From: Fibrobacteria bacterium
Lineage (GTDB): Bacteria > Fibrobacterota > Fibrobacteria > UBA11236 > JADFYW01
Reading direction: 5' to 3'
NCBI GenBank assembly: GCA_050294405.1
Contig: JBNKOC010000027.1
Location: 67,639 to 131,638 of the forward strand
DNA: 64,000 nucleotides
The notes beneath the pieces are model-generated. The model saw nothing but the letters and a program-made list of their open reading frames with translations, had not been told where the DNA came from and did not search any database. This document shows positions 12,860 to 28,027 of the stretch, one piece after another (position 1 is the first letter of the stretch; the number at the start of each line of letters is the position of its first letter). The translations under genes were made by a program, and so were the position numbers.

Positions 12860-12924
12860 AATAAACTTTAAAATACTTTAACTTTTATGATACAATAAAG
12901 ACTTAAAAAAATATAGAGGGTCCC

Positions 12925-14040
12925 ATGAGCCTAGTTCAAACAGAATCCCCCAAATCCTCCACAAGAATTTTGGCCAAAATTTTAATCATCGACGACGAAG
13001 AATCCATTGGAATTGGAGTTTCCGATTTGCTCAATAGCTACGAATATTCTGCCGATTACGTTATGTCCGCAGAAGCGGGAGTAAAATATCTGGAATCCAA
13101 TCCCGATGTGGATATTGTGCTATTGGACATTAATTTGGGCACGGGAATGTCAGGCCTGGAAGCATTGCCGGTAATAAAAGATCGTTTTCGCTATGTGCAA
13201 ATTATAATGCTCACCAGCCACGACTCCATTGAAGTAGGCATAAAGGCCATGAAAAACGGGGCCCACGACTACCTCACCAAGCCTTTTGACGAGCGGAATT
13301 TTTTTGAGTTAGTTCCCCAAGCCCTGGAAAAGAAAAAACTCACACAGCTTAGCGATTTGTATTTGGGCATATTAGTTCACGATATGAACAACCCCCTCAA
13401 CAACATCAGCCTGGGCATGGATATGTTGAAAATTACTTTAAAGGAAAACCTGAATCCCAGACAAGAACGGCTTTTTGGGGTGGTCCATTCGGGCCTTTGG
13501 GAAATAAAAAACATGGTGCGCAACATTTTAAATGTGAACAAGTTTGAGCAGGGAGGTGTGGCTGCCCGCATCACCGAATTCGAGCTGCGTCCCTGTCTGG
13601 AAAAAACCCTGTCTATTTTTTCCGGCCTTATCCAAATTACCGAGAAAAAAATTAAAACCGAATTTTTATTGCCAGAAAATTCAAAAATCCATGCGGATAA
13701 GGAACTACTCAATCAGGTCATTGGCAATTTGCTTTCCAATTCCTTGCGATATTGCCCCAAAAATGAGGAAGTGGAATTTAAGGTGCAGTATTCTGAGCCA
13801 AAACTTTTGAAGTTTTCGGTGACCAACCCCGGTTCTTTTGTGCCTGATTCCATGAAAAATGAAATCTTCAACAAATTTTTTATCGGGCAAGCCCAGGAAA
13901 AAGGCAAATCCAACCGTAATTTTGGCCTGGGACTCTCCTATAGTAAAATGGCTGTGGAAGCCATGAATGGCCATATTTGGGTTGAAAGTCAGGAAAGTCC
14001 AGAAATAACAACTTTTCATTTCACAATCCCCCAATCCTGA
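12925..14040 (+). CDS. Soluble response-regulator receiver / histidine kinase hybrid (REC-HisKA-HATPase)
   Basis: The REC domain has IIDDEE, an acceptor Asp in VLLDINL (D68) and KPFD. The H-box is LVHDMNNPL (H152), the N-box is GNLLSNSLRY and the G2 box is FGLGLSY. Confidence 0.9.
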   Translation: MSLVQTESPKSSTRILAKILIIDDEESIGIGVSDLLNSYEYSADYVMSAEAGVKYLESNPDVDIVLLDINLGTGMSGLEALPVIKDRFRYVQIIMLTSHDSIEVGIKAMKNGAHDYLTKPFDERNFFELVPQALEKKKLTQLSDLYLGILVHDMNNPLNNISLGMDMLKITLKENLNPRQERLFGVVHSGLWEIKNMVRNILNVNKFEQGGVAARITEFELRPCLEKTLSIFSGLIQITEKKIKTEFLLPENSKIHADKELLNQVIGNLLSNSLRYCPKNEEVEFKVQYSEPKLLKFSVTNPGSFVPDSMKNEIFNKFFIGQAQEKGKSNRNFGLGLSYSKMAVEAMNGHIWVESQESPEITTFHFTIPQS

Positions 14041-14173
14041 AAAAATTGTTTGTTTTAAAAATCAAAAAGTTTTACCAAATTTATCCACAACCTTAAATCG
14101 ATATTGTTGAAAGCTGTAAATATTTTCGACAATCACATGCCATTTTAAGCAACTATTAACTCTTACTCACAAC

Positions 14174-14215
14174 TTTCCAACATCTTTTTGGCTAATGTTT
14201 ATTGAATGTTGGAAA
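14174..14215. repeat. 10-bp inverted repeat TTTCCAACAT-N22-ATGTTGGAAA upstream of the SRPBCC-PilZ gene
   Basis: Read directly from the sequence. It lies about 135 nt upstream of the ATG at 14351. Confidence 0.85.
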
Positions 14216-14350
14216 CAATTGTCTCCATTCCCCAATTCTAAATTTGCTGGAGCGCTAATTAGCTTGTGATGGACCTTGCGGGGATTTATATTTCTAAAAA
14301 GGCAATGAGTTTTAGTTAATGTTAACGAGTTGGGCACTCAAGGGGTTGTT

Positions 14351-15103
14351 ATGTCCATTCAGACTATAATCGCAGAAACATTTTTTGAAGGAATGAACCG
14401 CCAGGATAAAGTCTGGGATGTTATTAGCCATATTGAAGAACATTCTCAAAAACTGGCTAATGTATTAGACTTGTATTCCTTAAAAACTATGGCCACGGAA
14501 AAACATCTTTCCTGGAATGCCATGTTGGATGACGCTCCCTTTAGTTGGATAGAAAAAAATATTTTTGATTCGCAAAATAAAGTTCTCCAATTTGAGTCCC
14601 TTAGCGGTGACTTTGATATATGGAGAGGTAAATGGAAGGTGGGCCTTAACTCGAAAAACGCAGTGAGCCTAAAAATTAAATTGGAGTACGAATTAGGTAT
14701 TCCAGTTCTGGAAGAAAACATCAGCGACATTCTCCAAACAAAAGTTCATGGGTACTTAAAGTTGTTGCTTCTTAGTATTGGGCGAATTGTGGAGAACAAG
14801 CAAAGAGATGAAAGAGTTAATCCACGTTATTATTTAGATGCTTTTCACAATGCCACATTAAATGGGCTTAATTCTCCCATTAGCATTGTTGATATATCCA
14901 GGGGTGGGGCTAGAATCAAAATAAGCTCAGCTGTTGGAAAGTATACAGAGTCCATTACTATTGGACAAACTGAGCATGAAGTTGGAGAATTTATCCCTGA
15001 ACATGGCAATTTTGGTAGAATAATTTTTGCCCACGAATTATCTGATGAATCTTTATCAAGTATTCTTGACGAAGCAGAATACATTCGGGCCAACAGCAAT
15101 TAA
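14351..15103 (+). CDS. SRPBCC (cyclase/dehydrase-like ligand-binding) domain fused to a PilZ domain
   Basis: The ATG at 14351 is preceded by AAGGGG; the track start at 14330 is TTG. N-terminal motifs are KVWDVISHIEEH...SGDFDIWRGKWKV...LEYELGIPVLEE. The C-terminal PilZ motifs are RVNPR (RxxxR) and DISRGG (DxSxxG). Confidence 0.72.
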   Translation: MSIQTIIAETFFEGMNRQDKVWDVISHIEEHSQKLANVLDLYSLKTMATEKHLSWNAMLDDAPFSWIEKNIFDSQNKVLQFESLSGDFDIWRGKWKVGLNSKNAVSLKIKLEYELGIPVLEENISDILQTKVHGYLKLLLLSIGRIVENKQRDERVNPRYYLDAFHNATLNGLNSPISIVDISRGGARIKISSAVGKYTESITIGQTEHEVGEFIPEHGNFGRIIFAHELSDESLSSILDEAEYIRANSN

Positions 15104-15314
15104 CAAATTTAAAAAAGGAAATTCTTTACCGGAATTCCTTGTTCTTGGAGCCTTTATCTTTAATATTTAGTTATAGATAAATGTTTATTTAGTTTTTAAA
15201 GAAGTCATTTCCCGATAACATGGTTACAGCGCAAAAACCTGGCAAGTTTGCATTAATAAAACATGCTGCTAAAGAATATAGATACATAGTAGCTGATCCA
15301 GTTTAGGAATTATT

Positions 15315-16394
15315 TTGGAAAAAATTGCCTTTTTCATTAGTCCTGCAAATTGGGAAATTTTTTCTCAAAACTTAAACCAACTCAAGCCATCTAAAATATA
15401 CAGGGAAGAGCTTATAAAGCCAATGTTACAATGGGCTAACCCTAAGGTATTCAAAAGCTTTTCAGAACTTACATTCGATTCAAAAAAATATTTTGAAGGG
15501 TGTATAATTCTTGTTCCTTTTTTCCCGGATCGCCACTATAAAGACAGCAAATTTGTATTAGACAAAATAGAATCAGCTTTTGAGGTAGCAAAAAAAGAAA
15601 ACTGCACTATTGCAACATTAACAGGTTTTAATTCAATTGCTGTCCAAAGCAGAGAGTCTTATTTTGAGAAGAAATATAATATAAAGGTTACATCTGGAAA
15701 TACAACTACGGCGACAATAATCGTTAAATCAATATTGGACATATCCGATAAATTTAATCTTGATTTATCAGTTTCATCCTTAGCCATTATTGGAGCCACC
15801 GGAGACATTGGAAGAGGCTGCTTTTTAGGATTAGCCGAATATTTTCAAAAAATTTGGCTAACGGGCAGAGGTCTTAAGCCGCTGGAAGAGTTATACAATA
15901 CATATGCAAGCATCTATGATTGCGATATGGAAATTACAATGGATTCTGAATTTGCCATTTCTGAAAGCCAAATAGCCATTTTTGTAACAAGTTCCCCTAA
16001 AGAGCTATTTCATTTAAATGACTTACCAAAAAAGACAATAATTTGCGATGCTTCTTCTCCCATTAATATAAAAACCGGCGACTCGTTGAGAGATGACGTT
16101 TTTTTATACCACGGAGGAATAGTAAATATTCCCTTTGAGTTTAACTTGGGATTCGATTCAGGTTTGTCCAGCCAGAGTCATGTGTACGGCTGCGAACTTG
16201 AAGGTATGTTAATGGGTGTAAATCCCGATTTATCGGGGTCCCACGGAAGAGGAAATATAGACAGCTTTAGACTTAATACCTTTGAATCTGAGCTTATAAA
16301 ATATCCTAATATTAGTTTAGCTTATTCGTGGAAAAACAAACAGTATCACAACATGGAACTATTAACCTATGCGAACTATTGGCGGAACTCTTAA
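15315..16394 (+). CDS. Acyl-ACP reductase (AAR)-like NAD(P)-dependent reductase
   Basis: TLTGFNSI, TSGNTTTA, IIGATGDIGRG and YGCELEGML align by eye with cyanobacterial AAR (LGGFTSI, TTGNTHTA, VVGATGDIGSA, FACFAEAML). It has a TTG start. Confidence 0.65.
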   Translation: MEKIAFFISPANWEIFSQNLNQLKPSKIYREELIKPMLQWANPKVFKSFSELTFDSKKYFEGCIILVPFFPDRHYKDSKFVLDKIESAFEVAKKENCTIATLTGFNSIAVQSRESYFEKKYNIKVTSGNTTTATIIVKSILDISDKFNLDLSVSSLAIIGATGDIGRGCFLGLAEYFQKIWLTGRGLKPLEELYNTYASIYDCDMEITMDSEFAISESQIAIFVTSSPKELFHLNDLPKKTIICDASSPINIKTGDSLRDDVFLYHGGIVNIPFEFNLGFDSGLSSQSHVYGCELEGMLMGVNPDLSGSHGRGNIDSFRLNTFESELIKYPNISLAYSWKNKQYHNMELLTYANYWRNS

Positions 16395-19300
16395 AGGCCC
16401 ATTTCTTCCGCGATTTTAAAGGATAATTTTTCCACCGTAGAGTTTTCCAACACGTCCATTGAATTTATTTCGACAGCTAACTCCATTGAGATGGCTGAGA
16501 CTAATTCAACCGCTAATATGGAATCAATACCAAGATCATTTATCAGCGCATGATTTGAAATTTGACCGACATCAATGTTAAGCATTTTTGAAAGTGTTTC
16601 CTTTAAAAAAGTATGAATTGAATTAATGTCCTTTTTTATTGAATCTTGAACCCATTCAACTTGAGCCTTTTCTATTTTATACTTTTCTATAACTTTTCCA
16701 AAATATTTCGCATCATAAAAATCAGGGTATTTTTTTAGCCACTTACTCCAATCAGACTTGAAACATCCAATTTGAGGCTGATTAGTTCGCAGTGTCAGAT
16801 TAATAGTATTTAAAACATCGTCAATAGTTAAGTATTCCAGACCAATTGATTTTAAATAATTTTGGGCTGCCTGGTTCTTCGCCGCAGCGCCTACGGCTTC
16901 CACAGGCCCTAAATTTATAGAAAAGCTTGCAAAGCCTTGTAACCTCATATGCTGCATAAGACCATCTAAAAAGCCGTTTGACGCCCCGTAGGCCAACTGA
17001 CCCTGGTTTCCGACAATTGAAGTTATAGAAGAAAAACTAATGAAAAATTTTATTCTTTTTTTGTCCAATAGTTCAAAAATATTTAGGGCTCCTACAACTT
17101 TTGGGTTAAGTGTCTTAACAAAATTATTTCTTGTGACATTTTCAAATAATTTGTCTTCAATAACAGCTGCAGAGTGAAAAACACCTGAAATTTTAAATCC
17201 GGTACTCTGAATTTTATCGAAAAATTGTTTTAGTTCTGCTTTATTGGCTATGTCCATTTTACCTGAAAAAATTTGAATTCCAGATTCATTCGAGTTACGA
17301 ATGAAATTAATAGCTTCTTCGGATTTAGGCCCGCTCCTTCCGCACAATGCAATGTTTTTGGCCCCATTTTTTATCAACCATTTTGCCACCTCAATTCCCA
17401 GCCCTCCAAACCCTCCGGTAATCAGGAAAACATCCTTTGAATTAATAATGTTTTGTTTGATGTTTGCATCACAGACTGGAATTGGGAGGCGGGTTTCTTT
17501 ATTAATGTCTTCCACTCTTTTTAGACGCGCAAGATCCATCGGATCCAGAAAAATTGTATAAAATTTGTTTTTGATGCTGCATAAGCAATCTGTGTTACCG
17601 GCCATAAGGGTTAATTCTGAAGGAATATTATAATTAATAGCAAACCTCATATTCCGAAGTTCAATAGCCGCCGTTTTTAAGAAGCTGCTTATCATAGTAA
17701 ACTCGGGATTTTCCAAAGGGTTTTCATTTTTAGAATGCATTTTAACAATTACATTTCGAATATTGCCCGACTTGCCTGCCAAAGAAATAATGTTTTGAAG
17801 CCTGGCTAGGGTATCGGCAGTTTTATTGCCGTAAAAATTATTACTAGATGTAATATTTTGGATACTCAATGTATTTTTATTCTTAATATCCACGAAATTT
17901 TTGGAAGATACTTTTGCATTTAGACCCAATTTAATTACATCTACATTTGAAATGTCTAATACTTTATTTCTATCAATTTCCGTTAAGGATGGATTATAGT
18001 ATATCCAATTCTTAAATCCTGGAGATGGTATGGACTTGAACACTAAGTTTTCGACAACGGCTAATATGTGACCGTATTGGGATATTACCTTTAAGTTAAC
18101 AGCCATTTTTTCCTCTGAAGAGGTGTGGATTTCTCCATATACATAAAAACCCTCCTCTGGTAGAGAAAATATTGAAATTTTTTTAATCTCACTGGGTACA
18201 TATTTTTCATTATTTGGAACAAAAGCCAGACAAGCCTGAAGACATGCATCCAAATTTCCAGAAAAGTACTTAAAACCATCAATACTTTCGAAATTAAAAT
18301 TTATCTCGGCAAGGAATTCACTATCAAGCAGGAATAAATTCTTAATTGAAGCAAAACTTCTTTTATAATCGTACCCCAACTCCCGAAAGTAATCATATAC
18401 GTCATCTCCCAATATTGAAACTTTACCGAACTTTTGTTTCAATGTGACCAATTCAATTCCCGAAGGCTCTTCAAATTCACTAACATCAATATTTGCCCGA
18501 GCACATAAATTCCATGGAGATTCATTAGACACTTGCTTAGTATAGAATAATATATCAGATGCTTGTTCATTATAGTGGGTTTGCATATCCACTACATCTT
18601 CGTCTGGAATGACAATCATTTTCAATATTTTGAAGTTATGGATATCAAGCTTTTTTATACTCTCCTGATATTTTGTGAAATGTAATATTGAATCAATAAA
18701 ACCCATGCCGGGAAACACTTTTTTACCCAAGACACAGTGGTCAGGCAAAAATGGAAAAAAATAATCATTTAACTCCGCGTTCCATACTTCCCCAGGTACA
18801 TTCATTTTCACCTGCATAAATGGGCTATTGCCGGGGTTCCCTACCCTGGCTACCTTGGATTCTGGAGATTCTGACCAATGGTAGGATTTTTGCCAGGGAT
18901 AGCTTGGTATTCTTATAAAATTACCTCTCGGGTGAATAATTTGCTCCCAATTTATGTTCCCACCTATCGTAAAAAAAGAGGAAAGGGATTGAAAAAAGCA
19001 TTCCACCGCATCTTGCTCCCGTAACAGAGAATTAACATAGTTAAATGGTATCCTTTTTACATCACAGACTTTTTTAATTGATGATTTCAGCACATGATGT
19101 GCACTTATTTCAACAATAACATCATAACCGTCTTTCAGTGCTTCTTCGAATGCCTTGTGAAAATATACCGGTTGCCTGATGTTATTACACCAGTAATCTG
19201 GGTTGAAAACAGCATCATTTACTTTTTCGCCAAATACTGAAGAATAAAGATTAATAGCCGGAGCCTTAGACTTCAGGCCCTTTATTGATTTTCTGAATTT

Positions 19301-21514
19301 GGGTAATATGTGATCAATTATCGGACTGTGGTAGGGAACATTTACATTTAGCATTCTTGAAACTATTTTATTTTCATAAAGGATTGCTTTTAACCTTTTT
19401 AATTCTTCATGATCACCAGATAGTGTCACAGTATTAAAATCGTTGTATGCTCCTATTCCTATTGATTCAGGAACTAATTCAAATAACTCTTTCTTGTTTT
19501 CCTCCGTATAACTCACGGCTAACATTGAACCCTTTCCCTGGATACTTTTGTATGCCTGGCCTTTTCTAATAGACAGCAAAACTGCTTCACGCAATGTTAA
19601 ACACCCTGCGGCATGGGCTGCCGCTGTTTCTCCCAAACTATGGCCAATGCAGCCATCCGGTGTGACCCCATAGTGTTTCCACAGTTCCGTCAAGCTTAAT
19701 TGAAGACAAACCAAGGCTACTTGTAAAACTTCGGTATCATTTATTCGCGACTTTTCCTTTGACTTTGAAAGTTCTTTTACCAAAGACCAACCGGCATATT
19801 TACTTACAATCTTGTCGCATCTATCCAGAACATTTTTATAAATAGAGTTTTTTTTGTAAAGTTCTTTCCCCATTGCATGCCACTGCGGGCCCGAACCCGG
19901 AAAAACAAATAGTACTTTTGAATTTTTAGTTGCAACGGATCCACGAATTATATTTGCGTTCTTTTTTAAATCTTTTAAAAGGCTTAGTTTTTCTTTTAGT
20001 TCCTCTGTGTTTTTGCCAATAATAACAGCTCTCTCCGAATGATGGGTTCTTCGATAGCTGAGTGTGTAAGCAAAATCATTCAAGTTTATGCTTTTTTTAT
20101 TCAAAAAATCATGGTAACGGCTCGCTGTTTCGGCTAGAGCCCGTTCCCCTCTTGCTGTAATTGGGAGCATATAAAAAGGCTCAAGTATTTTTGCTGATTT
20201 TATTTTTTCTGTTTTAGTCCAATTGCTCAAAATCGCATGTCCGTTTGAGCCCCCATAGCCAAAAGAATTGACTGAAGCCAAAAGATATTTCTTTGAGGGA
20301 AGTTTCTTATTTTTTTGGGTGACATGGATTAACAGCGATTTAAAATCAATCTCCGGGTTCAATTTCGCGGAATGGAGTGAGGGGACAACAGCCTGATGCT
20401 TCAAGATCAGAGACGCCTTTATGATTCCAGCAATCCCCGCTGCTGCTTCGGTATGGCCTATATTTGACTTAATGGACCCCACATCAACCTTTGACTTCAC
20501 TCCCTCACTTTTTAGTAACTCGTTGATGGACCAGCTTTCTGCCTTGTCTCCTGCATCAGTACCTGTTCCGTGAGCCTCAAAATAAACCAAGTTTTTTACG
20601 GATTTTGGTATTTCAGAATAGGCTTTCTTCATTAATTTTAATTGAGCCTCGGGACTGGGCAATGTAATTCCGTTGGTTCTACCGTCCTGGTTAATTCGGA
20701 CATTTTCAATAACTGCATAAATTTTGTCCCCATTTTTTACTGCATCTTCAAGCGGTCTAACAACCACTACTCCCGCACCTTCTCCTCTGCCGTATCCATT
20801 GGCATTATCTCCAAAAGCTCTGGAACGGTTTGAAATTAAACTACCTTTTGCAAGATTCACCATTGAAATAGGGTTAAAAATCACGTTAACTCCCCCAATT
20901 AAGGCAACATCTGATTCCTTATTTTGAATTGATTGAAACGCCAGGGCCAAAGCCGTCATTGAGGAAGAGCAGGCAGTATCCACAGATAAACTTGGGCCTT
21001 TAAAATCAAATACATAAGAAACTTTATTTGAAATGACAGACATCATCACATTTATAGCATGTTCTTTTTTTATAGAATAACGATTTAGATACCCGCTTTG
21101 GTGCAGATAATTTTCTAAGTGAAAGGCTCCAACGAACACTCCAGTTGTCATTTTTTGTAATTCAGACAATGTGAGTCCACTATCCTCTATAGCCTCCCAT
21201 GAGGATTCAAGAATTAACCTTTGTTGCGGGTCTATGGAATCCACTTCGTTTGCATTGAGACCAAAAAATAGAGGGTCAAATTCCCACAATGAGCTTGTGA
21301 GAAAACCGGCTTCAAGTGCGTTTGATTTTCCAGGTTTATTAGGATTGGGATGGTAGAATTTCCTTAAATCCCACCTGTCTGTTGGAATTTTTCTGAAGCA
21401 GTCTTTCCCTGAAACTAAGTTGTTCCACAAGGCCTCCACAGAGTCTGCCCCGCCGGGAAATCGACAGCCTATGCCAGTTATGGCAAGAGGGCTTTTTCTC
21501 AGATTTTTCATCAA
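16391..21514 (-). CDS. Type I polyketide synthase, single module KS-AT-DH-KR-ACP
   Basis: KS has DTACSSS (C182), EAHGTGT and NIGHTEAAAG. AT has GHSLGE (S626). DH has HCVLGKKVFP (H926) and DACLQ. KR has ITGGFGGLG and Y1509. ACP has LGIDS (S1665). The protein ends 42 aa after the ACP Ser. Confidence 0.95.
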   Translation of the reverse strand: MMKNLRKSPLAITGIGCRFPGGADSVEALWNNLVSGKDCFRKIPTDRWDLRKFYHPNPNKPGKSNALEAGFLTSSLWEFDPLFFGLNANEVDSIDPQQRLILESSWEAIEDSGLTLSELQKMTTGVFVGAFHLENYLHQSGYLNRYSIKKEHAINVMMSVISNKVSYVFDFKGPSLSVDTACSSSMTALALAFQSIQNKESDVALIGGVNVIFNPISMVNLAKGSLISNRSRAFGDNANGYGRGEGAGVVVVRPLEDAVKNGDKIYAVIENVRINQDGRTNGITLPSPEAQLKLMKKAYSEIPKSVKNLVYFEAHGTGTDAGDKAESWSINELLKSEGVKSKVDVGSIKSNIGHTEAAAGIAGIIKASLILKHQAVVPSLHSAKLNPEIDFKSLLIHVTQKNKKLPSKKYLLASVNSFGYGGSNGHAILSNWTKTEKIKSAKILEPFYMLPITARGERALAETASRYHDFLNKKSINLNDFAYTLSYRRTHHSERAVIIGKNTEELKEKLSLLKDLKKNANIIRGSVATKNSKVLFVFPGSGPQWHAMGKELYKKNSIYKNVLDRCDKIVSKYAGWSLVKELSKSKEKSRINDTEVLQVALVCLQLSLTELWKHYGVTPDGCIGHSLGETAAAHAAGCLTLREAVLLSIRKGQAYKSIQGKGSMLAVSYTEENKKELFELVPESIGIGAYNDFNTVTLSGDHEELKRLKAILYENKIVSRMLNVNVPYHSPIIDHILPKFRKSIKGLKSKAPAINLYSSVFGEKVNDAVFNPDYWCNNIRQPVYFHKAFEEALKDGYDVIVEISAHHVLKSSIKKVCDVKRIPFNYVNSLLREQDAVECFFQSLSSFFTIGGNINWEQIIHPRGNFIRIPSYPWQKSYHWSESPESKVARVGNPGNSPFMQVKMNVPGEVWNAELNDYFFPFLPDHCVLGKKVFPGMGFIDSILHFTKYQESIKKLDIHNFKILKMIVIPDEDVVDMQTHYNEQASDILFYTKQVSNESPWNLCARANIDVSEFEEPSGIELVTLKQKFGKVSILGDDVYDYFRELGYDYKRSFASIKNLFLLDSEFLAEINFNFESIDGFKYFSGNLDACLQACLAFVPNNEKYVPSEIKKISIFSLPEEGFYVYGEIHTSSEEKMAVNLKVISQYGHILAVVENLVFKSIPSPGFKNWIYYNPSLTEIDRNKVLDISNVDVIKLGLNAKVSSKNFVDIKNKNTLSIQNITSSNNFYGNKTADTLARLQNIISLAGKSGNIRNVIVKMHSKNENPLENPEFTMISSFLKTAAIELRNMRFAINYNIPSELTLMAGNTDCLCSIKNKFYTIFLDPMDLARLKRVEDINKETRLPIPVCDANIKQNIINSKDVFLITGGFGGLGIEVAKWLIKNGAKNIALCGRSGPKSEEAINFIRNSNESGIQIFSGKMDIANKAELKQFFDKIQSTGFKISGVFHSAAVIEDKLFENVTRNNFVKTLNPKVVGALNIFELLDKKRIKFFISFSSITSIVGNQGQLAYGASNGFLDGLMQHMRLQGFASFSINLGPVEAVGAAAKNQAAQNYLKSIGLEYLTIDDVLNTINLTLRTNQPQIGCFKSDWSKWLKKYPDFYDAKYFGKVIEKYKIEKAQVEWVQDSIKKDINSIHTFLKETLSKMLNIDVGQISNHALINDLGIDSILAVELVSAISMELAVEINSMDVLENSTVEKLSFKIAEEMGL

Positions 21515-21655
21515 TTTTTACATCCTTCCAAGAATCCAAAACAAATTCTCAAACCAATTCATTACTGCATTCAATCTAAAAACTAATGAACTTTAAATAA
21601 GAATTCTAAAAACATATAGTTTTTTGTTAAAAAAATGAATTTAGGTAGGTAAACA

Positions 21656-21664
21656 TGATATAAT
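21656..21664 (+). promoter_or_regulatory. Extended -10 element TGATATAAT upstream of the giant kinase gene
   Basis: The TGnTATAAT element lies about 125 nt upstream of the ATG at 21788, in the PKS/kinase divergent region. Confidence 0.35.
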
Positions 21665-21787
21665 CTGCAAATAATCTACAAAAACTCTATTTGGACTTAA
21701 TCGAAAGAAGAACATGATTTTAAATACTACTTTTGATTTAATCAGGCAAGGTTTTAGTCTATATAGGTGAAAAGGATTTAGCCAAAT

Positions 21788-24700
21788 ATGATTCCAAAGC
21801 AATTAGGGAAGTATAGAATCATTTCACCCATTGGAAAGGGATATGATAGCACAGTTTATCTTTGCCAGGATCTAGAAACCAACAAAAAGTATATTCTAAA
21901 ATCGCTCTCCAAAGTAAATTCAAATTTGGAAAAGGTTATAAGCTCAAGTGTAAGGTTTAAAAATGAAATTGATATTTTAGATACTATAAATCACGAAAAT
22001 ATTAATTCCATCCATGATTCATTTTTGCATGATGAACATTATCAAATTGTCTTTCCCTATGAGCCCGGAGTTACACTAAACGAAAGAATTGAATCTTCAG
22101 GTGTCATAGACACTGAAAACGCAATTAAAATTATTTCCCAAATCTTGGAAGGGTTAAAGTACATTCATTCGAGAGGGTATGTGCACTGTGACATTAACCC
22201 AAATAACATCTATATTCTGGAAAACGGACTTGTCAAAATATTGGATTTTGGATTCGCATTTCTTGATTCCGAAAATATGTCTAAGAATCCGGGAAGTATT
22301 GTGGGAACCATACCTTATCTGGCTCCGGAACAAACTGGTTACACAAACTTTAAAATTGATGCGCGAACAGATACATTTTGTACCGGTGTCATTTTATATC
22401 GACTACTTGCCAATAAATTACCGTTTGAAATTAAAGATAATTCTATCACCGAATTGATTGATTCCATTTTAAAATGTGATATCAAGCCGTTAAAAAATAT
22501 TCCCATAAAGTTCAATCAGATCTTAATCAAGTCATTGCAGCCCAATCCAGCCGACAGATACCAAACAGCCCAGGGGTTTTTGGAAGATTTAAACCAAGCT
22601 ATGAAATTAGAAGAAAGTGAAGTATGGAAAGTTGGGGATAAGGATAGAGTTATATCCATTAACAGAAAAAAAATATTTATCGGCAGGAACAATGAATTAT
22701 CACAAATATCCGATGTTTTAAAAATACACAACTCAACAAGGGCAGGATCCCTATTGGTATATGGCTCGTCAGGAATGGGAAAATCTTTCTTAATAAAACA
22801 TTTAAAATCAAAAAACATAATAACTGCACCTGTTATAATTGAAAGTAAATGCAACAGGTTCAGCAAAAGCCAACCCTTCTCTACGCTGCGTGATTTAATA
22901 TTGAATTTTTTGTATGATCAGGTGAAATCGTCCACGGACTTAGCAAACCTCGAGAGCTTTGTTAATGAAAAATATGGCTCGAAATCGGGGCATATATTAG
23001 AAGCTATCCCCGAATTAGCTCCTTTTTTTAAATCCGTAAATTTTGAGAAAAGTGTTGAAAATCAATCAAACAGGTTAAACCATTATCTTTTTAATTTTTT
23101 CAGGGAATTAGGGAACAAATACAAAATAATGCTGCACATTGATGATTTTCAATGGATTGACCATCCCAGTTTTTTAGTTATATCAAAGTTATTGGAGTCC
23201 AAAAACAGGCCGTTTATAATAATCAGTTACCGCACGGAAAAACAAAATTCGGATTTATTTGTTGATGATTATGACTTAAATAAAATTGAGTTTACAGCCA
23301 CTATTAACCTTAAAGCTTTTGATAAGAAAGATGTTATTGCATATTTGGACACCAAGTTTGGAAGTTTTGGAAACCAAAGCCAATTAGCAGACATTTTAAT
23401 TTCTAAAACGAATTCATCTCCCTTTGAAATTGAAGAAGCGTTAATACATCTAACAAATAATAATCTGATTATTCCAAAGGACAAGGATTGGAAAATAAGT
23501 ATCAAAACAATACAAGCTGTAGGTGAAAAATTTAACATAATTGATATCCTTTCTCATAAAATTAAGTTTTTGTCTATTGAAGAAAAGAAAATATTAGAAT
23601 TTGCAAGCGCTTCTCAAAAACCCATTAACCCTTCTTTGCTTATATCAATCTTTAATTTGCCTAGGAAAGAAACACATTTAATTATCAATGATTTACTGTC
23701 CCAGGGTTTATTAAAAATGGACATTTCTGGAAAATTTGCTTTTACTCACGATCAAATCAGAGACATTATATATTTAGGAATCAGCAGTAGCAAACAAATT
23801 CAAATAAATGAACAATATGCAAAACATTTTGAAGGCTTAATTGAACTGAATAATGAAATTATTTTTGATACAGCTGAATACTATTTAAAAACGAATAATT
23901 CTTCCATGACCCTAAAATATTTAAAAATGGCTTCGGAACATGCAGAATCAAAACACGACCTAACCCTGGCTAAATATTACCTAAGAAAGACCCTGCAAAT
24001 CTATTCGATTGTACCGGATCAAAAGTCAAAAAAAACAGTAGACATTACTTTGGAAAATATACGCTTAGCAAAGTTAATGCTGATGAGCGGAAACAACCGT
24101 GAAGTCATTGGTTTTTTAGAAAAGTTTATATACAAAAACAAACTCCCCGAATTGCAAAAATTAGAATGCAAATACATACTAGGCTCTGCATACCAATATA
24201 CGTCAAATTTTGATGAAGCCATCAAATGTTACATGGGCGCTTTACAATCACTAAAGAAAAATTTTCCAAAAAACCGCATTACCCTCATTACAAAAACATT
24301 ATTTCAAATATTTATACAATACAGTACATCTTGGGTTTTTATTAATTTTTATCAAAAACCAAAGAAAGCAGAGTATCAACTAAAAATTAACATATACCGA
24401 AGACTAGTACATTGCTTCTTTTATAAAGACCTTCTTTCTTGTGTTTATGTCGCATTTTGTGCAAAAAATATGGCCGACAAAAGCATTGATACAAAAGAAA
24501 AAATAGAAGCTTATTTACAGCATTCTTACGGATTGTATTTTATGTATTTAAAAAAATCTTCATTTAACCTAATGAATAAAGCAATGAGGATTGCATTGAG
24601 AATCCAAAGAGTGGACACCATAGCAGAGGCCCACTGTTGGAAAGGAATGATAGAGTACTGCGATGGGAAATGGATTACGGCAAAAACAGAATTAAAAGAA

Positions 24701-26920
24701 AGTATAAAAAAGTACCAATCTATAGCGGATATCAACTCTTCATTACTACCGGAGTCTCATTTGTGGAGAATATATTTATACACAGGCAACCTACAGGAAG
24801 CCTATTCGCTAGCTGTAGATTCAGTGTCAAAATCCAAAATCTGCAAGGACATTCACTTCCGTACAATTTCTGAACTGTGTATAGAATACATTAATGCCTT
24901 ACAAATCAAAGACTATTACAAAAAAAACGGGACACAGCTAAGTTCTTTTGGTCAAACAAAAACCGAAATACTTACAAGCATCATGATGTCTATTCAAATA
25001 GCAAAAATTCATCTATTATTTAATGAAACAAAACTTTCATACAATTGTCTCGTTCCACATATAAAGGAAATTAAATCAAGAAATTTAAAGCAAGAGTATG
25101 TTACTCCTATTTTCAATTTAATTTGCGAGACCTTATATAAAGACATCCTCTTAGGGAAAGAGGGCAATTTAAATTTTAGTAAAAAGAAAAAAATGTCTTT
25201 ATTTAGAAAGTTCATAACCTTGTCCCTGATAAACTGCACAAATTTCCCAGCCCATGTGGGATCTATATATAGAAGTATTGCATGGTATTCCTATTTTAGG
25301 GGTTGGAAATCCATGTCTGTATTTTTCTTTAAAAAAGCAATCGGAAAATTTCACAAGCTGAATATGAGTCTTGAGGAAGGACAAACCTACGAAGATATTG
25401 CCAAATTTTATTATTTAGAAGGAATCTCCGGTGACTACATAGATAATATTGAAAAAGCATATAAATATTATTCCGATTGCAACGCCTCTGTTCTTATTGA
25501 AAGACTAACCAATTTACATTCGCACGAAATACCACAAACATCTAAGTTTGAGAGTGCATCAAGCCTAAACAATTCTATTATAGAATCAGATATCAACCAT
25601 CTCAGAGTGAATACCATTCTTGATGTGTCTAACACAATTATCGAAAATACGGATATAAATCTAATAATGGAACAAACTGTAATGGCACTCATTAAAACAA
25701 CGGGCGCCCAAAATGGATACATGTTTCTTGTTTCGGATAATCAATCTAAAAAAAAATTATTTCTGGATTTTAATGGTAAAGAAATTAGAGATGCCGAATC
25801 AAATTACTCTGATGAGATAATTGAATGGGTAAACAATAGCAGAAAATCCATTTTATTAAAGGATGGATCCGATACAGATATCATTAAAACTATCCCGAAA
25901 AGCAAAATCAGGTCCGTCTTATGTATTCCCCTTATAAGAAAGGATAACTATTTGGGATGTGTTTATCTTAGTAACGATAGAATTTCAGGTTTATTTACCA
26001 GTACATCCGAAAAAGCCGCTAAATTACTTGTTGCTCAAGCTTCCATACTCTTAGAAAACGCTTATTTATTAAACAGTTACAAACAATTAAATGAAAATTT
26101 AGAAGAAATTGTAAAAGAACAAACCGCTGACATTAGAAGTAAAAAAGAAGAGCTGGAAGACTTTAATTTAAAGCTAATAGAATCTGAGCGGATGAAGGAT
26201 ATTTTAACAGGCACCTTAGTACACGATATTAAAAATTATGTAGCGGGCATTGAAGGAAATTTAAAAGTATTAAAAAGAAAACTTGGGGATGAGGAAAAAA
26301 ACTTTCGCAGCTTGCATACGGCAGCCATGGCATGTATGGATATAGCTTCTCTTTCTTCGAACCTCTTAGATATTGGTAGAATGGAAGAAGGCCATTTAGA
26401 AATCAAGCCTCAAAAAGTTTCCTACAATGTAATAAGCCATATAATTTCGAAATTAAGAGAGGCAGCCCCCTTTGAAGAAAAAAACATTGATGTTGAATTA
26501 ATAAAACCTGAATTTGATGTTAACTTTGAATGGGACCACAGATTATTGGACAGAGTTATCCAAAATTTATTTAATAATGCGGCTAAATATACTCCAGAAC
26601 AGGGAAAAGTAAAAGTATACTTCGAAAACCACAATTCTGAATATGTAATGGTAATTTACAACTCTGGAAATCCCATTGAAGAAGAATACAAACAGGAACT
26701 TTTCAACAAATACGCCCGTGCAGGGGCTAAGTGGTCGCCTTATTCAAAGGGACTGGGCCTATTTTTTTGCAAAATGGTTGTTCAGGCCCATAAGGGGAAT
26801 ATATGGGTAGATACGGATATAAGCGGAAATTATTTTAAAATTTCCTGTAGCAAAAATTTTTCCCATAAGGCCAAAGAATCACATATGGCCAGCCCTGAAA
26901 GAGATTCCCAGCCTGTTTGA
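21788..26920 (+). CDS. Multidomain Ser/Thr protein kinase - AAA(STAND-like) ATPase - TPR/helical - GAF - histidine kinase (HstK-like)
   Basis: STK motifs are GKGYDSTV, K38, HCDINPNN, DFG and APE. FIGRNNEL is followed by the P-loop GSSGMGKS and Walker B MLHIDDF. The GAF-like region includes CIPLIRKDNYLGCVYLSN. The H-box is LVHDIKN (H1479), the N-box is QNLFNNAAKY and the G2 box is GLGLFF. Confidence 0.9.
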   Translation: MIPKQLGKYRIISPIGKGYDSTVYLCQDLETNKKYILKSLSKVNSNLEKVISSSVRFKNEIDILDTINHENINSIHDSFLHDEHYQIVFPYEPGVTLNERIESSGVIDTENAIKIISQILEGLKYIHSRGYVHCDINPNNIYILENGLVKILDFGFAFLDSENMSKNPGSIVGTIPYLAPEQTGYTNFKIDARTDTFCTGVILYRLLANKLPFEIKDNSITELIDSILKCDIKPLKNIPIKFNQILIKSLQPNPADRYQTAQGFLEDLNQAMKLEESEVWKVGDKDRVISINRKKIFIGRNNELSQISDVLKIHNSTRAGSLLVYGSSGMGKSFLIKHLKSKNIITAPVIIESKCNRFSKSQPFSTLRDLILNFLYDQVKSSTDLANLESFVNEKYGSKSGHILEAIPELAPFFKSVNFEKSVENQSNRLNHYLFNFFRELGNKYKIMLHIDDFQWIDHPSFLVISKLLESKNRPFIIISYRTEKQNSDLFVDDYDLNKIEFTATINLKAFDKKDVIAYLDTKFGSFGNQSQLADILISKTNSSPFEIEEALIHLTNNNLIIPKDKDWKISIKTIQAVGEKFNIIDILSHKIKFLSIEEKKILEFASASQKPINPSLLISIFNLPRKETHLIINDLLSQGLLKMDISGKFAFTHDQIRDIIYLGISSSKQIQINEQYAKHFEGLIELNNEIIFDTAEYYLKTNNSSMTLKYLKMASEHAESKHDLTLAKYYLRKTLQIYSIVPDQKSKKTVDITLENIRLAKLMLMSGNNREVIGFLEKFIYKNKLPELQKLECKYILGSAYQYTSNFDEAIKCYMGALQSLKKNFPKNRITLITKTLFQIFIQYSTSWVFINFYQKPKKAEYQLKINIYRRLVHCFFYKDLLSCVYVAFCAKNMADKSIDTKEKIEAYLQHSYGLYFMYLKKSSFNLMNKAMRIALRIQRVDTIAEAHCWKGMIEYCDGKWITAKTELKESIKKYQSIADINSSLLPESHLWRIYLYTGNLQEAYSLAVDSVSKSKICKDIHFRTISELCIEYINALQIKDYYKKNGTQLSSFGQTKTEILTSIMMSIQIAKIHLLFNETKLSYNCLVPHIKEIKSRNLKQEYVTPIFNLICETLYKDILLGKEGNLNFSKKKKMSLFRKFITLSLINCTNFPAHVGSIYRSIAWYSYFRGWKSMSVFFFKKAIGKFHKLNMSLEEGQTYEDIAKFYYLEGISGDYIDNIEKAYKYYSDCNASVLIERLTNLHSHEIPQTSKFESASSLNNSIIESDINHLRVNTILDVSNTIIENTDINLIMEQTVMALIKTTGAQNGYMFLVSDNQSKKKLFLDFNGKEIRDAESNYSDEIIEWVNNSRKSILLKDGSDTDIIKTIPKSKIRSVLCIPLIRKDNYLGCVYLSNDRISGLFTSTSEKAAKLLVAQASILLENAYLLNSYKQLNENLEEIVKEQTADIRSKKEELEDFNLKLIESERMKDILTGTLVHDIKNYVAGIEGNLKVLKRKLGDEEKNFRSLHTAAMACMDIASLSSNLLDIGRMEEGHLEIKPQKVSYNVISHIISKLREAAPFEEKNIDVELIKPEFDVNFEWDHRLLDRVIQNLFNNAAKYTPEQGKVKVYFENHNSEYVMVIYNSGNPIEEEYKQELFNKYARAGAKWSPYSKGLGLFFCKMVVQAHKGNIWVDTDISGNYFKISCSKNFSHKAKESHMASPERDSQPV

Positions 26921-27004
26921 GTCTCACTAAGACCAAAAAATCTAAAGCTACTAAAGTTTCTAAACTTATATGTGCCCGTCTGCCGGGATTCCCCTAAAAA
27001 TTGG

Positions 27005-27013
27005 TGGTATAAT
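27005..27013 (+). promoter_or_regulatory. Extended -10 element TGGTATAAT upstream of the minor-pilin operon
   Basis: The TGnTATAAT element lies about 90 nt upstream of the ATG at 27104. Confidence 0.35.
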
Positions 27014-27103
27014 AATAGTAGTTAGTGATATCTGAAAAGGACTCAAATTTAGTTTCAATGGTCCTTTGATTTGGGTTGTTTTAAACGCTATTAATCGCAT
27101 TAA

Positions 27104-27625: not shown

Positions 27626-28026
27626 AAATCAAAAATCAGCGCCATCAATCCGGTTTTGCTCTAATGGAAATTTTAGTCGCTATGGCCATTCTTGGGGTCG
27701 GTTTCAGTTTTATTTTAATGTCAGATAAAATTTCCTGGAATACCACGAAAAGTTCAATAAAGATGCTGAAAGCCGGGCACTTAATTGAAAAGAATATTGA
27801 GCAGCTTAGAATACATATAAGCTCAAATCCAGCAGCTAACTTTCCTCCTACAGACACCAGCTTCACTGAAGATGGAATTACATTTCAACGAAAAATAACA
27901 ACGGCTTACTCTCCAAAAACGGGAACCGCCCTATCTAACATCCGAAAATTGGAAATAACTACCGCTTGGGGTAGTAGCGTAAACGATTCTTTAAATATTC
28001 AAACTTACATATCCAGAGATTTTTAG
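27622..28026 (+). CDS. Type IV minor pilin / pseudopilin, PilV-GspI-like
   Basis: SG/FALMEILVAMAILGVG has Glu at +5. There is an ATGA overlap with the upstream gene. Confidence 0.72.
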   Translation: MKIKNQRHQSGFALMEILVAMAILGVGFSFILMSDKISWNTTKSSIKMLKAGHLIEKNIEQLRIHISSNPAANFPPTDTSFTEDGITFQRKITTAYSPKTGTALSNIRKLEITTAWGSSVNDSLNIQTYISRDF

Positions 28027-28027
28027 C

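What the first reader, a model, noticed from the sequence alone, without database searches (positions are those of the whole stretch)
15315..21514. Orphan KS-AT-DH-KR-ACP polyketide synthase without a release domain, tail-to-tail with an acyl-ACP-reductase-like gene
Seen in sequence: the 1707-aa PKS has all condensing and reducing catalytic motifs (C182, H315, H354; GHSLGE; HxxxGxxxxP plus DxxxQ; KR Tyr; ACP Ser1665). It stops 42 aa after the ACP serine and has no TE, R, C, ER, MT or loading domain.
The convergent 359-aa neighbour shares its stop with the PKS in a TTAA tetranucleotide (16391-16394). By eye it aligns with cyanobacterial acyl-ACP reductase over GFNSI, TSGNTTTA and the GATGDIG Rossmann loop. 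A Cys (C293, YGCELEGML) sits where AAR has its acyl-thioester nucleophile (FACFAEAML; Cys294 as I recall).
Inference: the reductase off-loads the ACP-bound chain in trans as an aldehyde. The product would be a hydroxy, enoyl or polyene long-chain aldehyde or alcohol.
The window contains no aldehyde-deformylating oxygenase, PPTase, glycosyltransferase or starter-loading enzyme. This is therefore not the textbook alkane pathway or a heterocyst-glycolipid cluster. A PKS paired with a free-standing AAR-family release enzyme would be an unusual biosynthetic logic.
Basis: partly seen in the sequence, partly recalled or inferred. Interest (0 to 1): 0.75.

Follow-up and report, generated by a model that had tools for sequence, protein, structure and literature searches.

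The report
Polyketide synthase with AAR-type release reductase
A bacterium of the little-studied phylum Fibrobacterota carries a polyketide synthase with no built-in release domain, lying tail-to-tail with a free-standing relative of the cyanobacterial fatty-aldehyde-forming reductase, inside a conserved gene cassette that also encodes a lipid-binding c-di-GMP receptor and two large sensor kinases; the reductase most likely cuts the finished chain off the synthase as an aldehyde.

Summary
ORF 16391-21514(-) is an intact KS-AT-DH-KR-ACP type I PKS that ends 42 residues after the ACP serine. ORF 15315-16394(+) is a free-standing AAR-superfamily (COG5322) enzyme. Its AlphaFold model matches AAR best (TM 0.77-0.80), and Cys293 aligns with the AAR nucleophile Cys294.

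The pair is not orphan. In about 60 related loci, mostly Fibrobacterota, the reductase sits in a conserved cassette: REC-histidine kinase, SRPBCC-PilZ protein, reductase, stand-alone ACP, fatty-acyl-AMP ligase (with or without a B12-radical-SAM and a ThDP enzyme), then a giant Ser/Thr-kinase/STAND/GAF/histidine kinase. In one monophyletic subclade (five loci including the window), a release-domain-less PKS replaces ACP plus ligase, and its ACP end abuts the reductase.

This supports trans reductive off-loading from a carrier protein. It is inferred, not shown. There is precedent: TamA/TamH, PigE and the prediction for KecF, all fused to aminotransferases.

New here are the free-standing enzyme, the type I PKS partner and the recurrent PilZ-SRPBCC-reductase triad, which is fused into one protein in other phyla.

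Verdict: new variant of a known kind, in an uncharacterised and possibly signalling-linked cassette. Interest 0.6.

The parts
12925..14040 (+). REC-HisKA-HATPase protein (response-regulator receiver fused to a histidine kinase), the first gene of the conserved cassette
   Evidence: Pfam finds Response_reg 19-129, HisKA 148-210 and HATPase_c 258-370. Orthologues at 38-61% identity lie directly upstream of the SRPBCC gene in most related loci. It is present in 13 of 20 loci with long flanks.
14351..15103 (+). SRPBCC (START-like, lipid-binding fold) plus C-terminal PilZ-type c-di-GMP-binding module; 250 aa from the ATG (the mechanical ORF starts at 14330)
   Evidence: Pfam Polyketide_cyc hits res 19-121. 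The family profile hits the START-fold protein TTHA0849 (2d4r) at E 6e-22. R155xxxR159 and S183 of D181xS183xxG186 are invariant and G186 is >=90% conserved in 19 orthologues. Pfam PilZ hits 15 of 19 orthologues, best 1e-8; the window copy itself is below threshold. An orthologue lies directly upstream of the reductase in 43 of 50 loci. It is fused to the reductase in other phyla.
15315..16394 (+). Free-standing AAR-superfamily (COG5322) thioester reductase ('AARL'), 359 aa. GATGDIG is at res 160-166 (nt 15792-15812). The predicted acyl-accepting Cys293 is at nt 16191-16193.
   Evidence: TIGR04058 scores 1.4e-18, 67 bits against a cut-off of 450. The family profile hits AAR 6jzq at 3.6e-38. 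The AF2 model has pLDDT 90.9 and Foldseek ranks AAR first at TM 0.77-0.80. C293, G160, G163-G166, S127-N129 and G311-R312-G313-N314 are invariant in 29 homologues.
16391..21514 (-). Single-module type I PKS with KS-AT-DH-KR-ACP and no release domain. KS nt 20372-21493, AT 18977-19909, DH 18020-18793, KR 16898-17428, ACP 16424-16606 (Ser1665 at 16520-16522).
   Evidence: Pfam domains and catalytic motifs. The nearest solved relatives are DEBS, CurL and MAS-type modules. Orthologues at 38-47% identity in L004 and L085 are KS-AT-DH-ER-KR-ACP of 2093-2102 aa; the L003 fragment (cut by the contig end) shows DH-ER-KR-ACP. All three end at the ACP.
16391..16394 (.). TTAA shared by the two convergent stop codons
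   Evidence: Read directly from the sequence. The same 4-nt stop overlap occurs in L083/L084.
21788..26920 (+). Giant Ser/Thr kinase - AAA_16 (STAND) - GAF - HisKA - HATPase protein, 1710 aa, divergent from the PKS; the last gene of the conserved cassette
   Evidence: Pfam domains. Orthologues at 27-37% identity over about 1700 aa close the cassette in 18 of 20 loci with long flanks. It also occurs with distant reductase clades in Gemmatimonadota L030 and in L126/L127.

Best explanation
The locus is a clade-specific version of a conserved, uncharacterised Fibrobacterota cassette. Its catalytic core is a free-standing AAR-family NADPH-dependent thioester reductase (AARL) that works on an acyl chain held on a carrier protein.

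In most relatives a fatty-acyl-AMP ligase loads the chain onto a stand-alone ACP encoded right after the reductase. In the window's subclade, ligase plus ACP were replaced by one MAS-like type I PKS that ends at its ACP.

Proposed steps (all inferred):
1. The PKS primes with an acyl starter and extends it with malonyl-type units. Whether it runs once or iteratively is unknown. KR and DH, with no ER, leave a 2-enoyl or polyenoyl chain on Ser1665. The ER-containing relatives would leave a saturated chain.
2. AARL takes the chain from the phosphopantetheine arm onto Cys293.
3. NADPH, bound at GATGDIG, R185 and R312, reduces the thioester and a free aldehyde leaves.
4. The upstream SRPBCC-PilZ protein binds the hydrophobic substrate or product and couples the step to c-di-GMP.
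5. The REC-histidine kinase and the giant STK/GAF/histidine kinase either control the cassette or respond to its product.
For: Fold and active site
- The AF2 model (pLDDT 90.9) matches AAR first: E 5e-22, TM 0.77-0.80.
- Cys293 aligns with AAR Cys294 and is invariant.
- GATGDIG is identical to AAR residues 162-168.
- Two of the three AAR arginines that hold the 2'-phosphate are kept: R189 corresponds to R185 and R314 to R312 (AAR residues from PMC7089970).

Carrier-protein linkage
- Among 49 unique close-clade loci with at least 600 bp downstream, 39 have a stand-alone ACP directly after the reductase. Four have the ACP end of a convergent PKS. A fifth, L083/84, has a shorter flank.
- ACP identity was confirmed by Pfam.
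- The ligase is FadD-like.

Replacement
- PKS-linked reductases form one clade in an NJ tree.
- The window has no AMP-ligase, stand-alone ACP, ThDP or rSAM homologue.
- The PKSs of the window, L003, L004 and L085 end at the ACP with no release domain, and the L083 fragment likewise ends just after its ACP.

Partner
- SRPBCC lies directly upstream in 43 of 50 loci.
- SRPBCC-AARL, PilZ-SRPBCC-AARL and HTH-PilZ-SRPBCC-AARL fusions exist (also P0089 and P0090).

Precedent
- The TamH TR domain (AAR family) reduced acyl chains only when TamA (ANL-ACP) loaded them, not acyl-CoA (PMC9594044).
- The PigE N-terminal domain reduces a thioester (PMC8341465).
- The KecF COG5322 domain is predicted to release a type II PKS chain (PMC6498172).
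Against: - There is no biochemical evidence. The product is unknown.
- The protein scores far below the AAR equivalog cut-off (67 against 450 bits). Function transfer is therefore at superfamily level only.
- The superfamily also contains the TAD domain, whose chemistry is probably not a simple reduction (bioRxiv 10.1101/2024.10.28.620694). TAD matches the model nearly as well by fold, TM 0.72-0.78.
- AAR R193 and Y247 are not conserved: the window has P189 and S248.
- The two genes are convergent, so they are not co-transcribed.
- L004 lacks the SRPBCC gene next to the reductase.
- No PPTase is in the window. The rest of the 498-kb contig and the genome could not be searched for a TE or PPTase.
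- The NJ tree has no support values.
- AT specificity is non-canonical: VPYHS in place of HAFH or YASH.
Confidence: 0.6

Rival explanations
1. The reductase works on another thioester, such as fatty-acid-synthase acyl-ACP or acyl-CoA as in cyanobacterial AAR. The PKS chain is released by an unlinked hydrolase or acyltransferase, as mycobacterial MAS is off-loaded by PapA5. On this reading the PKS simply landed in a permissive slot of the cassette.
For: - AAR itself accepts FAS acyl-ACP and acyl-CoA (PMC7089970).
- The genes are convergent, not co-transcribed.
- MAS-type PKSs without a TE are normally released by trans acyltransferases (own knowledge). The PKS does resemble MAS and Pks2.
- Esterase-family and GDSL-family genes exist elsewhere in the window.
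Against: - The slot the PKS occupies is exactly the one held by ACP plus ligase in 39 of 49 relatives, and the PKS presents its ACP end to the reductase.
- The pairing persists across 42-48% reductase divergence in five loci.
- Neither the window nor the L004 and L085 loci contain a release enzyme.
- The closest tested relative, TamH, rejects acyl-CoA and needs the carrier protein.
Confidence: 0.15
2. The enzyme takes the chain onto Cys293 but does not release a free aldehyde. It might carry out TAD-like chemistry, transfer the acyl group to an acceptor, or reduce by four electrons to the alcohol.
For: - The TAD domain shares the fold and the cysteine but is linked to amide termini. No simple reductase activity was seen for it.
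- TAD matches the model at TM 0.72-0.78.
- A PlsC-type acyltransferase-AARL fusion exists (P0369).
- AAR residues R193 and Y247 are not conserved.
Against: - The sequence profile is far closer to AAR (3.6e-38) and PigE (8e-24) than to TAD (5.5e-8).
- TAD excludes NADP through an Asp. This family keeps the AAR arginines R185 and R312.
- No nitrogen-donating or acceptor enzyme is conserved in the cassette.
Confidence: 0.12
3. The PKS is one module of a larger split assembly line whose remaining modules and thioesterase are encoded elsewhere in the genome.
For: Only 64 kb of a 498-kb contig, and one contig of the genome, were visible. Split PKS systems exist (own knowledge).
Against: - No other PKS or NRPS gene is in the window.
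- In L004 the single PKS is bracketed by the reductase and the giant kinase; in L085 the contig ends at the PKS start, so its far side was not seen.
- The PKS begins directly with a KS and ends 42 aa after the ACP serine with no further domain by Pfam. Docking domains were not tested.
- The relatives have the complete FAS/MAS-like reducing set, typical of stand-alone iterative enzymes.
Confidence: 0.05

Closest known systems
Cyanobacterial acyl-ACP reductase AAR (TIGR04058; PDB 6JZQ/6JZU/6JZY)
   Same: Free-standing protein of about 340-360 aa with the same three-domain fold (TM 0.77-0.80). It has an identical GATGDIG loop, an aligned catalytic Cys (294 and 293), TxGNT and GRxN motifs, and two of the three 2'-phosphate arginines. 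The expected mechanism is ping-pong: acyl transfer to Cys, then NADPH reduction to aldehyde.
   Different: Identity is only about 19-20%, and the score is 67 bits against a 450-bit cut-off. No ADO partner is present and the ADO-binding basic residues are not conserved. The substrate source is a dedicated ACP plus ligase, or a PKS, rather than the FAS pool. The family always travels with an SRPBCC-PilZ protein and sensor kinases.
TamA/TamH (tambjamine) and PigE (prodigiosin MAP branch)
   Same: An AAR-family reductase domain releases a carrier- or thioester-bound acyl chain as an aldehyde. TamA is an ANL-ACP that loads a fatty acid, mirroring the ligase-plus-ACP pair of the canonical cassette (PMC9594044; PMC8341465). 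The PigE N-terminal region hits the window protein at 2.9e-16 and the family profile at 8e-24. PigE also works next to a ThDP enzyme (PigD), and many cassette relatives carry a ThDP enzyme.
   Different: In those systems the reductase is fused to a PLP aminotransferase and the aldehyde becomes an amine. Here it is free-standing and no aminotransferase is in the cassette. The cassette's ThDP enzyme is acetolactate-synthase-like and not assignable to PigD. The window version has no ThDP enzyme at all.
KecF of the koreenceine cluster (Pseudomonas koreensis)
   Same: A COG5322 domain is predicted to reduce an ACP-bound polyketide to an aldehyde. This is AAR-type release of a PKS product (PMC6498172).
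   Different: KecF serves a type II (discrete KS) system and is fused to an aminotransferase. Its function is predicted only. Here the PKS is a type I megasynthase and the reductase is a separate protein.
Mycocerosic-acid-synthase-like iterative PKSs (MAS, Pks2, Pks5) released in trans
   Same: A single-module KS-AT-DH-(ER)-KR-ACP enzyme with no TE depends on a separate protein for off-loading. The window PKS hits MAS structures (E 1.6e-153) and the Pks2 model.
   Different: The mycobacterial enzymes are released by acyltransferases such as PapA5 as esters (own knowledge), not reductively. The window PKS lacks the ER.
SDR-type terminal reductase (R/TR) domains of PKS, NRPS and carboxylic acid reductases
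   Same: Same net chemistry: NAD(P)H-dependent reductive release of a phosphopantetheine thioester as an aldehyde. The canonical cassette (ligase + ACP + reductase) is in effect a split carboxylic acid reductase.
   Different: The fold and mechanism differ. SDR domains use a Tyr/Ser/Lys site with no covalent Cys intermediate, and they act in cis. No NAD_binding_4 or SDR release domain is present in the window PKS.
CarI/VatR terminal amidation domain (TAD; PDB 9E4S-9E56)
   Same: Same superfamily and fold (TM 0.72-0.78). It has an invariant Cys reached by the carrier-protein arm.
   Different: TAD is a C-terminal domain of NRPS modules. It binds NAD and not NADP, and it is linked to amide formation. 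The sequence relation is weak (5.5e-8 against 3.6e-38 for AAR).

Membership tests
Long-chain acyl-ACP reductase, equivalog level (NCBIfam TIGR04058) | Whole-protein score above the curated cut-off (449.7 bits) | tested here: not met
   67.3 bits, E 1.4e-18. It is not an orthologue of the cyanobacterial enzyme.
Long-chain acyl-ACP reductase, equivalog level (NCBIfam TIGR04058) | Works with aldehyde-deformylating oxygenase: adjacent ado gene and the ADO-binding residues R73, R79 and K80 | tested here: not met
   No ADO-like gene is in the window. The only ferritin-like gene is a rubrerythrin about 20 kb away. The basic residues are not conserved in the alignment. The rest of the genome was not visible.
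AAR superfamily (COG5322: AAR, PigE/TamH TR domains, TAD) | Three-domain AAR fold | tested here: met
   AF2 model pLDDT 90.9, pTM 0.91. Foldseek ranks AAR first at TM 0.77-0.80, then TAD. GluTR and shikimate dehydrogenase reach only about 0.3.
AAR superfamily (COG5322: AAR, PigE/TamH TR domains, TAD) | Catalytic cysteine at the start of the C-terminal-domain helix, aligned with AAR Cys294 | tested here: met
   YGC293ELEGML aligns with FAC294FAEAML. The Cys is invariant in 29 homologues.
AAR superfamily (COG5322: AAR, PigE/TamH TR domains, TAD) | Dinucleotide loop GxxGxxG and NADPH 2'-phosphate pocket (AAR R189, R193, R314) | tested here: inconclusive
   GATGDIG is identical. The counterpart of R189 (R185) is at least 90% conserved and that of R314 (R312) is invariant. 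The counterpart of R193 is Pro189. NADPH is likely but NADH is not excluded.
AAR superfamily (COG5322: AAR, PigE/TamH TR domains, TAD) | NAD(P)H-dependent reduction of an acyl thioester to an aldehyde | not testable with these tools
   This needs an enzyme assay.
Type I modular/iterative polyketide synthase | KS, AT and ACP on one polypeptide with intact active sites | tested here: met
   Pfam domains and the motifs C182, H315, H354, S626 and S1665.
Type I modular/iterative polyketide synthase | Cis release domain (TE, R or C) | tested here: not met
   Nothing follows PP-binding 1637-1697 in a 1707-aa protein. L003, L004 and L085 likewise end at the ACP with no release domain.
PilZ c-di-GMP receptors (PF07238), for the 14351-15103 protein | RxxxR and (D/N)xSxxG motifs in a PilZ barrel | tested here: inconclusive
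   R155xxxR159 and D181xS183xxG186 are present in the window copy; R155, R159 and S183 are invariant and G186 is >=90% conserved across orthologues. Pfam PilZ hits 15 of 19 orthologues, but the window copy stays below E 0.01. The fold was not modelled and binding was not tested.
SRPBCC/START superfamily, for the 14351-15103 protein | Helix-grip fold domain recognised by profile | tested here: met
   Polyketide_cyc hits 19 of 19 orthologues. The profile hits the START-fold protein 2d4r at 6e-22.

The most novel reading that the evidence does not exclude
The cassette is a self-contained lipid-signal module of a kind not yet described. A carrier-protein-bound acyl or polyketide chain is released as a fatty or 2-enal aldehyde by a reductase whose activity is gated by c-di-GMP through the PilZ-SRPBCC partner. 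That aldehyde, or an acyloin made from it by the ThDP enzyme in relatives, is the ligand sensed by the GAF domain of the co-conserved giant Ser/Thr-kinase/histidine-kinase, which signals through the REC-histidine kinase.

This would be a fatty-aldehyde counterpart of DSF/Rpf or CAI-1 signalling. The PKS swap would be a way for one lineage to change its signal's structure.
Probability: 0.15. Interest if true: 0.85.

Novelty: new variant of a known kind. Interest (0 to 1): 0.6.

Why it matters
- It would add a new trans-acting reductive release enzyme to the polyketide toolbox. The enzyme is small, free-standing and of the covalent-cysteine AAR type. It could be paired with TE-less PKSs to make aldehydes.
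- It extends AAR-family biology well beyond cyanobacterial alkane synthesis. The family profile finds 377 protein clusters at 50% identity with E<=1e-30, and almost none are studied.
- The recurrent PilZ-SRPBCC-reductase triad points to direct c-di-GMP control of a lipid-modifying enzyme. The triad is fused in some phyla and always sits next to GAF-type sensor kinases. This link has not been described in the papers searchable here.
- Fibrobacterota have essentially no characterised secondary metabolism. A conserved cassette with swappable acyl-supply modules gives a concrete entry point.

Tried and rejected
1. Shikimate dehydrogenase or GluTR identity for the 359-aa protein was rejected. Pfam Shikimate_DH scores E 0.27 and the fold TM is about 0.3.
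2. The textbook alkane pathway was rejected: there is no ADO and the ADO-binding residues are absent.
3. A heterocyst-glycolipid-type cluster was rejected. The organism is Fibrobacterota-like: GuaA best named hits are Fibrobacteria MAGs at 57-60%. No Hgl-type genes are present.
4. A PigD-type identity for the relatives' ThDP enzyme could not be supported. It looks acetolactate-synthase-like.
5. The word-indexed homology search with the SRPBCC-PilZ protein found only itself. This blocked an MSA-based structure model. I used locus-derived alignments instead.
6. I tested whether the PKS ACP resembles the cassette's stand-alone ACPs. Similarity is only generic.
7. The L004 296-aa ORF upstream of the reductase is not a divergent SRPBCC-PilZ (hhalign probability 0.1%).
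8. The promoter and terminator scan of 12700-22000 gave counts within shuffle expectation.
9. Literature searches for COG5322, 'AAR-like', PilZ+SRPBCC and Fibrobacteres+AAR found no description of this cassette. The library lacks most subscription journals, so absence there is weak evidence.
10. PADLOC (defence systems) was not searched.

Full report
**What is at the coordinates**

The window comes from assembly GCA_050293925.1, contig JBNKNQ010000002.1 (498 kb). Its GMP synthase is closest to Fibrobacteria/Fibrobacterota MAG proteins, but only at 57-64% identity. The source is therefore a deep, poorly sampled Fibrobacterota lineage.

ORF 16391-21514(-) is a type I PKS with KS, AT, DH, KR and ACP, and nothing else. 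The likely true start is the ATG one codon downstream, giving 1706 aa. The AT specificity motif is non-canonical (VPYHS), so I do not assign the extender unit. The KR carries an 'IED' version of the LDD motif. By the established KR rules (own knowledge) this suggests a B-type KR feeding the DH, which would give an E-2-enoyl product per cycle.

ORF 15315-16394(+) shares TTAA with the PKS stop.

**The 359-aa protein is an AAR-superfamily enzyme**

- Pfam finds nothing significant; Shikimate_DH scores E 0.27.
- NCBIfam gives the AAR equivalog model at 1.4e-18, far below its cut-off, and the PigE N-terminal region at 2.9e-16.
- A profile of 29 homologues hits AAR structures at 3.6e-38, PigE at 8e-24, the CarI terminal amidation domain at 5.5e-8 and GluTR at 5.7e-6.
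- An AlphaFold model (pLDDT 90.9) matches AAR best (TM 0.77-0.80). TAD follows at 0.72-0.78. GluTR and shikimate dehydrogenases reach only about 0.3.
- Cys293 aligns with the AAR acyl-accepting Cys294 and is invariant.
- GATGDIG is identical to AAR residues 162-168.
- Of the three arginines that hold the NADPH 2'-phosphate in AAR (PMC7089970), two are conserved (R185, R312) and one is not (P189).
- Y247 and the ADO-binding residues are not conserved.

So this is a superfamily member with an intact catalytic apparatus. It is not an AAR orthologue.

**The pair is not orphan**

Homologues at 34-48% identity are almost all from Fibrobacterota MAGs and peat, sediment or wetland metagenomes. I classified neighbours in 62 unique close-clade loci by tblastn and spot-checked them with Pfam and NCBIfam. 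The canonical order is:

1. REC-histidine kinase
2. SRPBCC protein
3. reductase
4. stand-alone ACP of about 95 aa
5. FadD-like AMP ligase of about 450 aa
6. optional B12-radical-SAM enzyme
7. optional acetolactate-synthase-like ThDP enzyme
8. a roughly 1700-aa Ser/Thr kinase-STAND-GAF-histidine kinase

The counts are as follows.

| Loci considered | Feature | Count |
|---|---|---|
| 49 with >=600 bp downstream | stand-alone ACP directly after the reductase | 39 |
| 49 with >=600 bp downstream | ACP end of a convergent PKS | 4 |
| 50 with >=1 kb upstream | SRPBCC gene directly upstream | 43 |
| 20 with long flanks | giant kinase | 18 |
| 20 with long flanks | AMP ligase | 18 |
| 20 with long flanks | REC-histidine kinase | 13 |
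| 20 with long flanks | ThDP enzyme | 11 |
| 20 with long flanks | radical-SAM enzyme | 7 |

**The PKS replaces ACP plus ligase**

Five loci carry a PKS in the slot normally held by ACP and ligase:

- the window;
- L083/L084 (P0002, 48% identity; only the KR-ACP end is on the contig, with the same 4-nt stop overlap);
- L003/L087 (P0004);
- L004;
- L085 (P0006).

In L004 and L085 the PKS is KS-AT-DH-ER-KR-ACP, 2093-2102 aa; the L003 copy is cut by the contig end and shows DH-ER-KR-ACP. All three end at the ACP with no release domain. The window copy lacks the ER.

The five reductases form one clade in a neighbour-joining tree, though the tree has no support values. The window holds no ligase, stand-alone ACP, ThDP or radical-SAM homologue. 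It also holds no TE, PPTase or second PKS.

The simplest reading is a single ancestral swap of the acyl-supply module. The constant requirement is that a carrier-protein thioester be presented to the reductase.

**The upstream protein is an SRPBCC-PilZ fusion and a true partner**

The 250-aa product of 14351-15103 has an SRPBCC domain. Its family profile hits the START-fold protein TTHA0849 at 6e-22.

Its C-terminal region carries the c-di-GMP-binding signature R155xxxR159 and D181xS183xxG186. R155, R159 and S183 are invariant and G186 is >=90% conserved in 19 orthologues. Pfam PilZ hits 15 of those 19, but the window copy itself is sub-threshold.

An exhaustive profile search found 377 family clusters (50% identity) at E<=1e-30. 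Many of the listed hits are longer, fusion-length proteins; of the ten scanned with Pfam, nine proved to be SRPBCC-reductase, PilZ-SRPBCC-reductase or HTH-PilZ-SRPBCC-reductase, and one a PlsC-acyltransferase-reductase. These Rosetta-stone fusions argue for a physical and functional triad.

**Wider pattern**

More distant clades (24-31% identity) keep the theme.

- Chloroflexota and Acidobacteriota loci have ligase-ThDP-SRPBCC-reductase.
- Gemmatimonadota L030 and metagenomic L126/L127 have SRPBCC-reductase-ThDP-giant kinase.
- L128/L142 have discrete KS genes, an FAD amine-oxidase-like enzyme, the reductase, two GAF histidine kinases, a REC-HD-GYP-type protein and FabG.

Acyl-building enzymes, GAF kinases and c-di-GMP components recur around this reductase across phyla.

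**Mechanism proposed**

Shown:
- domain content, motifs and fold;
- conserved adjacency to carrier proteins;
- the partner fusions.

Inferred:
- the PKS builds an enoyl or polyenoyl chain on Ser1665 (saturated in the ER-containing relatives);
- the reductase takes it onto Cys293 and NADPH releases an aldehyde;
- SRPBCC binds the hydrophobic chain and PilZ imposes c-di-GMP control;
- the kinases regulate or sense.

The closest tested precedent is TamA/TamH. There an ANL-ACP loads a fatty acid, and an AAR-family TR domain reduces the carrier-bound chain but not acyl-CoA (PMC9594044). PigE (PMC8341465) and the predicted KecF (PMC6498172) are further precedents. All three are fused to aminotransferases.

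**Rivals**

1. The reductase acts on another thioester and the PKS is released otherwise (0.15).
2. The Cys-bound chain meets a non-aldehyde fate, TAD-like or alcohol-forming (0.12). The TAD work shows that this fold need not be a simple reductase.
3. The PKS belongs to a larger split assembly line (0.05).

The best explanation stands at 0.6.

**Novelty and score**

AAR-type reductive off-loading of carrier-bound chains is known. A free-standing enzyme serving a type I, MAS-like PKS is not described in the papers I could search. Neither is the PilZ-SRPBCC-reductase triad embedded between sensor kinases. That library lacks most subscription journals.

I rate it a new variant of a known kind, with interest 0.6. 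The most novel reading not excluded is a c-di-GMP-gated fatty-aldehyde signalling module, with probability about 0.15.

Noticed in passing
window 14001-30000: The cassette, the giant kinase and the downstream pseudopilin genes form the lowest-GC stretch of the window (0.32-0.38, against 0.41-0.46 in the flanks at 1-14 kb and 38-44 kb). This may be a horizontally acquired or fast-evolving island.
   Followed up: no
window 27104-30543: Three consecutive small proteins carry the prokaryotic N-terminal methylation motif (pilin or pseudopilin-like). A 573-aa PA14-domain protein follows, directly downstream of the giant kinase.
   Followed up: no
L128 1-11330 and L142: A distant reductase (29% identity) sits between discrete KS genes, an FAD amine-oxidase-like enzyme, a 7TM-GAF histidine kinase, a GAF histidine kinase, a REC-HD-domain (HD-GYP-like) protein and FabG. 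This is a type II counterpart of the same theme, with a c-di-GMP phosphodiesterase-type regulator.
   Followed up: partly
proteins P0295, P0314, P0322, P0369 (representative library): Natural fusions exist: PilZ-SRPBCC-reductase, HTH-PilZ-SRPBCC-reductase and PlsC-type acyltransferase-reductase. The HTH fusion suggests a DNA-binding version. The PlsC fusion suggests a link to glycerolipid acylation.
   Followed up: partly
related loci, e.g. L009 14192-15496(-) and 15557-17347(+); L005 12903-14684: Many canonical cassettes add a B12-binding radical-SAM enzyme (HpnJ/HpnR-like, possibly a lipid C-methylase) and an acetolactate-synthase-like ThDP enzyme. An aldehyde plus a ThDP carboligase could give an acyloin (alpha-hydroxyketone). 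The window lacks both.
   Followed up: partly
window 7252-9737: A shikimate dehydrogenase gene is followed, with a 1-nt overlap, by a fused shikimate kinase / 3-dehydroquinate synthase gene of 538 aa.
   Followed up: no
window 52213-56557 (-): A Y-family polymerase-like gene (IMS domains, 406 aa) overlaps the start of a DnaE2-like error-prone polymerase III alpha gene of 1049 aa. This is the arrangement of an ImuB-DnaE2 mutagenesis cassette.
   Followed up: no
window 41756-48159: Polysaccharide-degradation genes fit a Fibrobacterota lifestyle: an alginate-lyase-family protein, a ThuA-like protein and a glucuronyl esterase with a CarboxypepD_reg domain.
   Followed up: no
L003 (CAZLBO010000156.1): The contig is labelled 'uncultured Bifidobacteriales' but carries the Fibrobacterota-type cassette: giant kinase fragment, SRPBCC, reductase and PKS. 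It is identical in layout to metagenomic L087. The bin assignment is probably wrong.
   Followed up: no
window 11828-12859 (-): A 343-aa ORF has no Pfam or NCBIfam match. It is convergent with the family-4 glycosyltransferase gene and overlaps its 3' end by 81 nt. It is not conserved next to the cassette in relatives.
   Followed up: no
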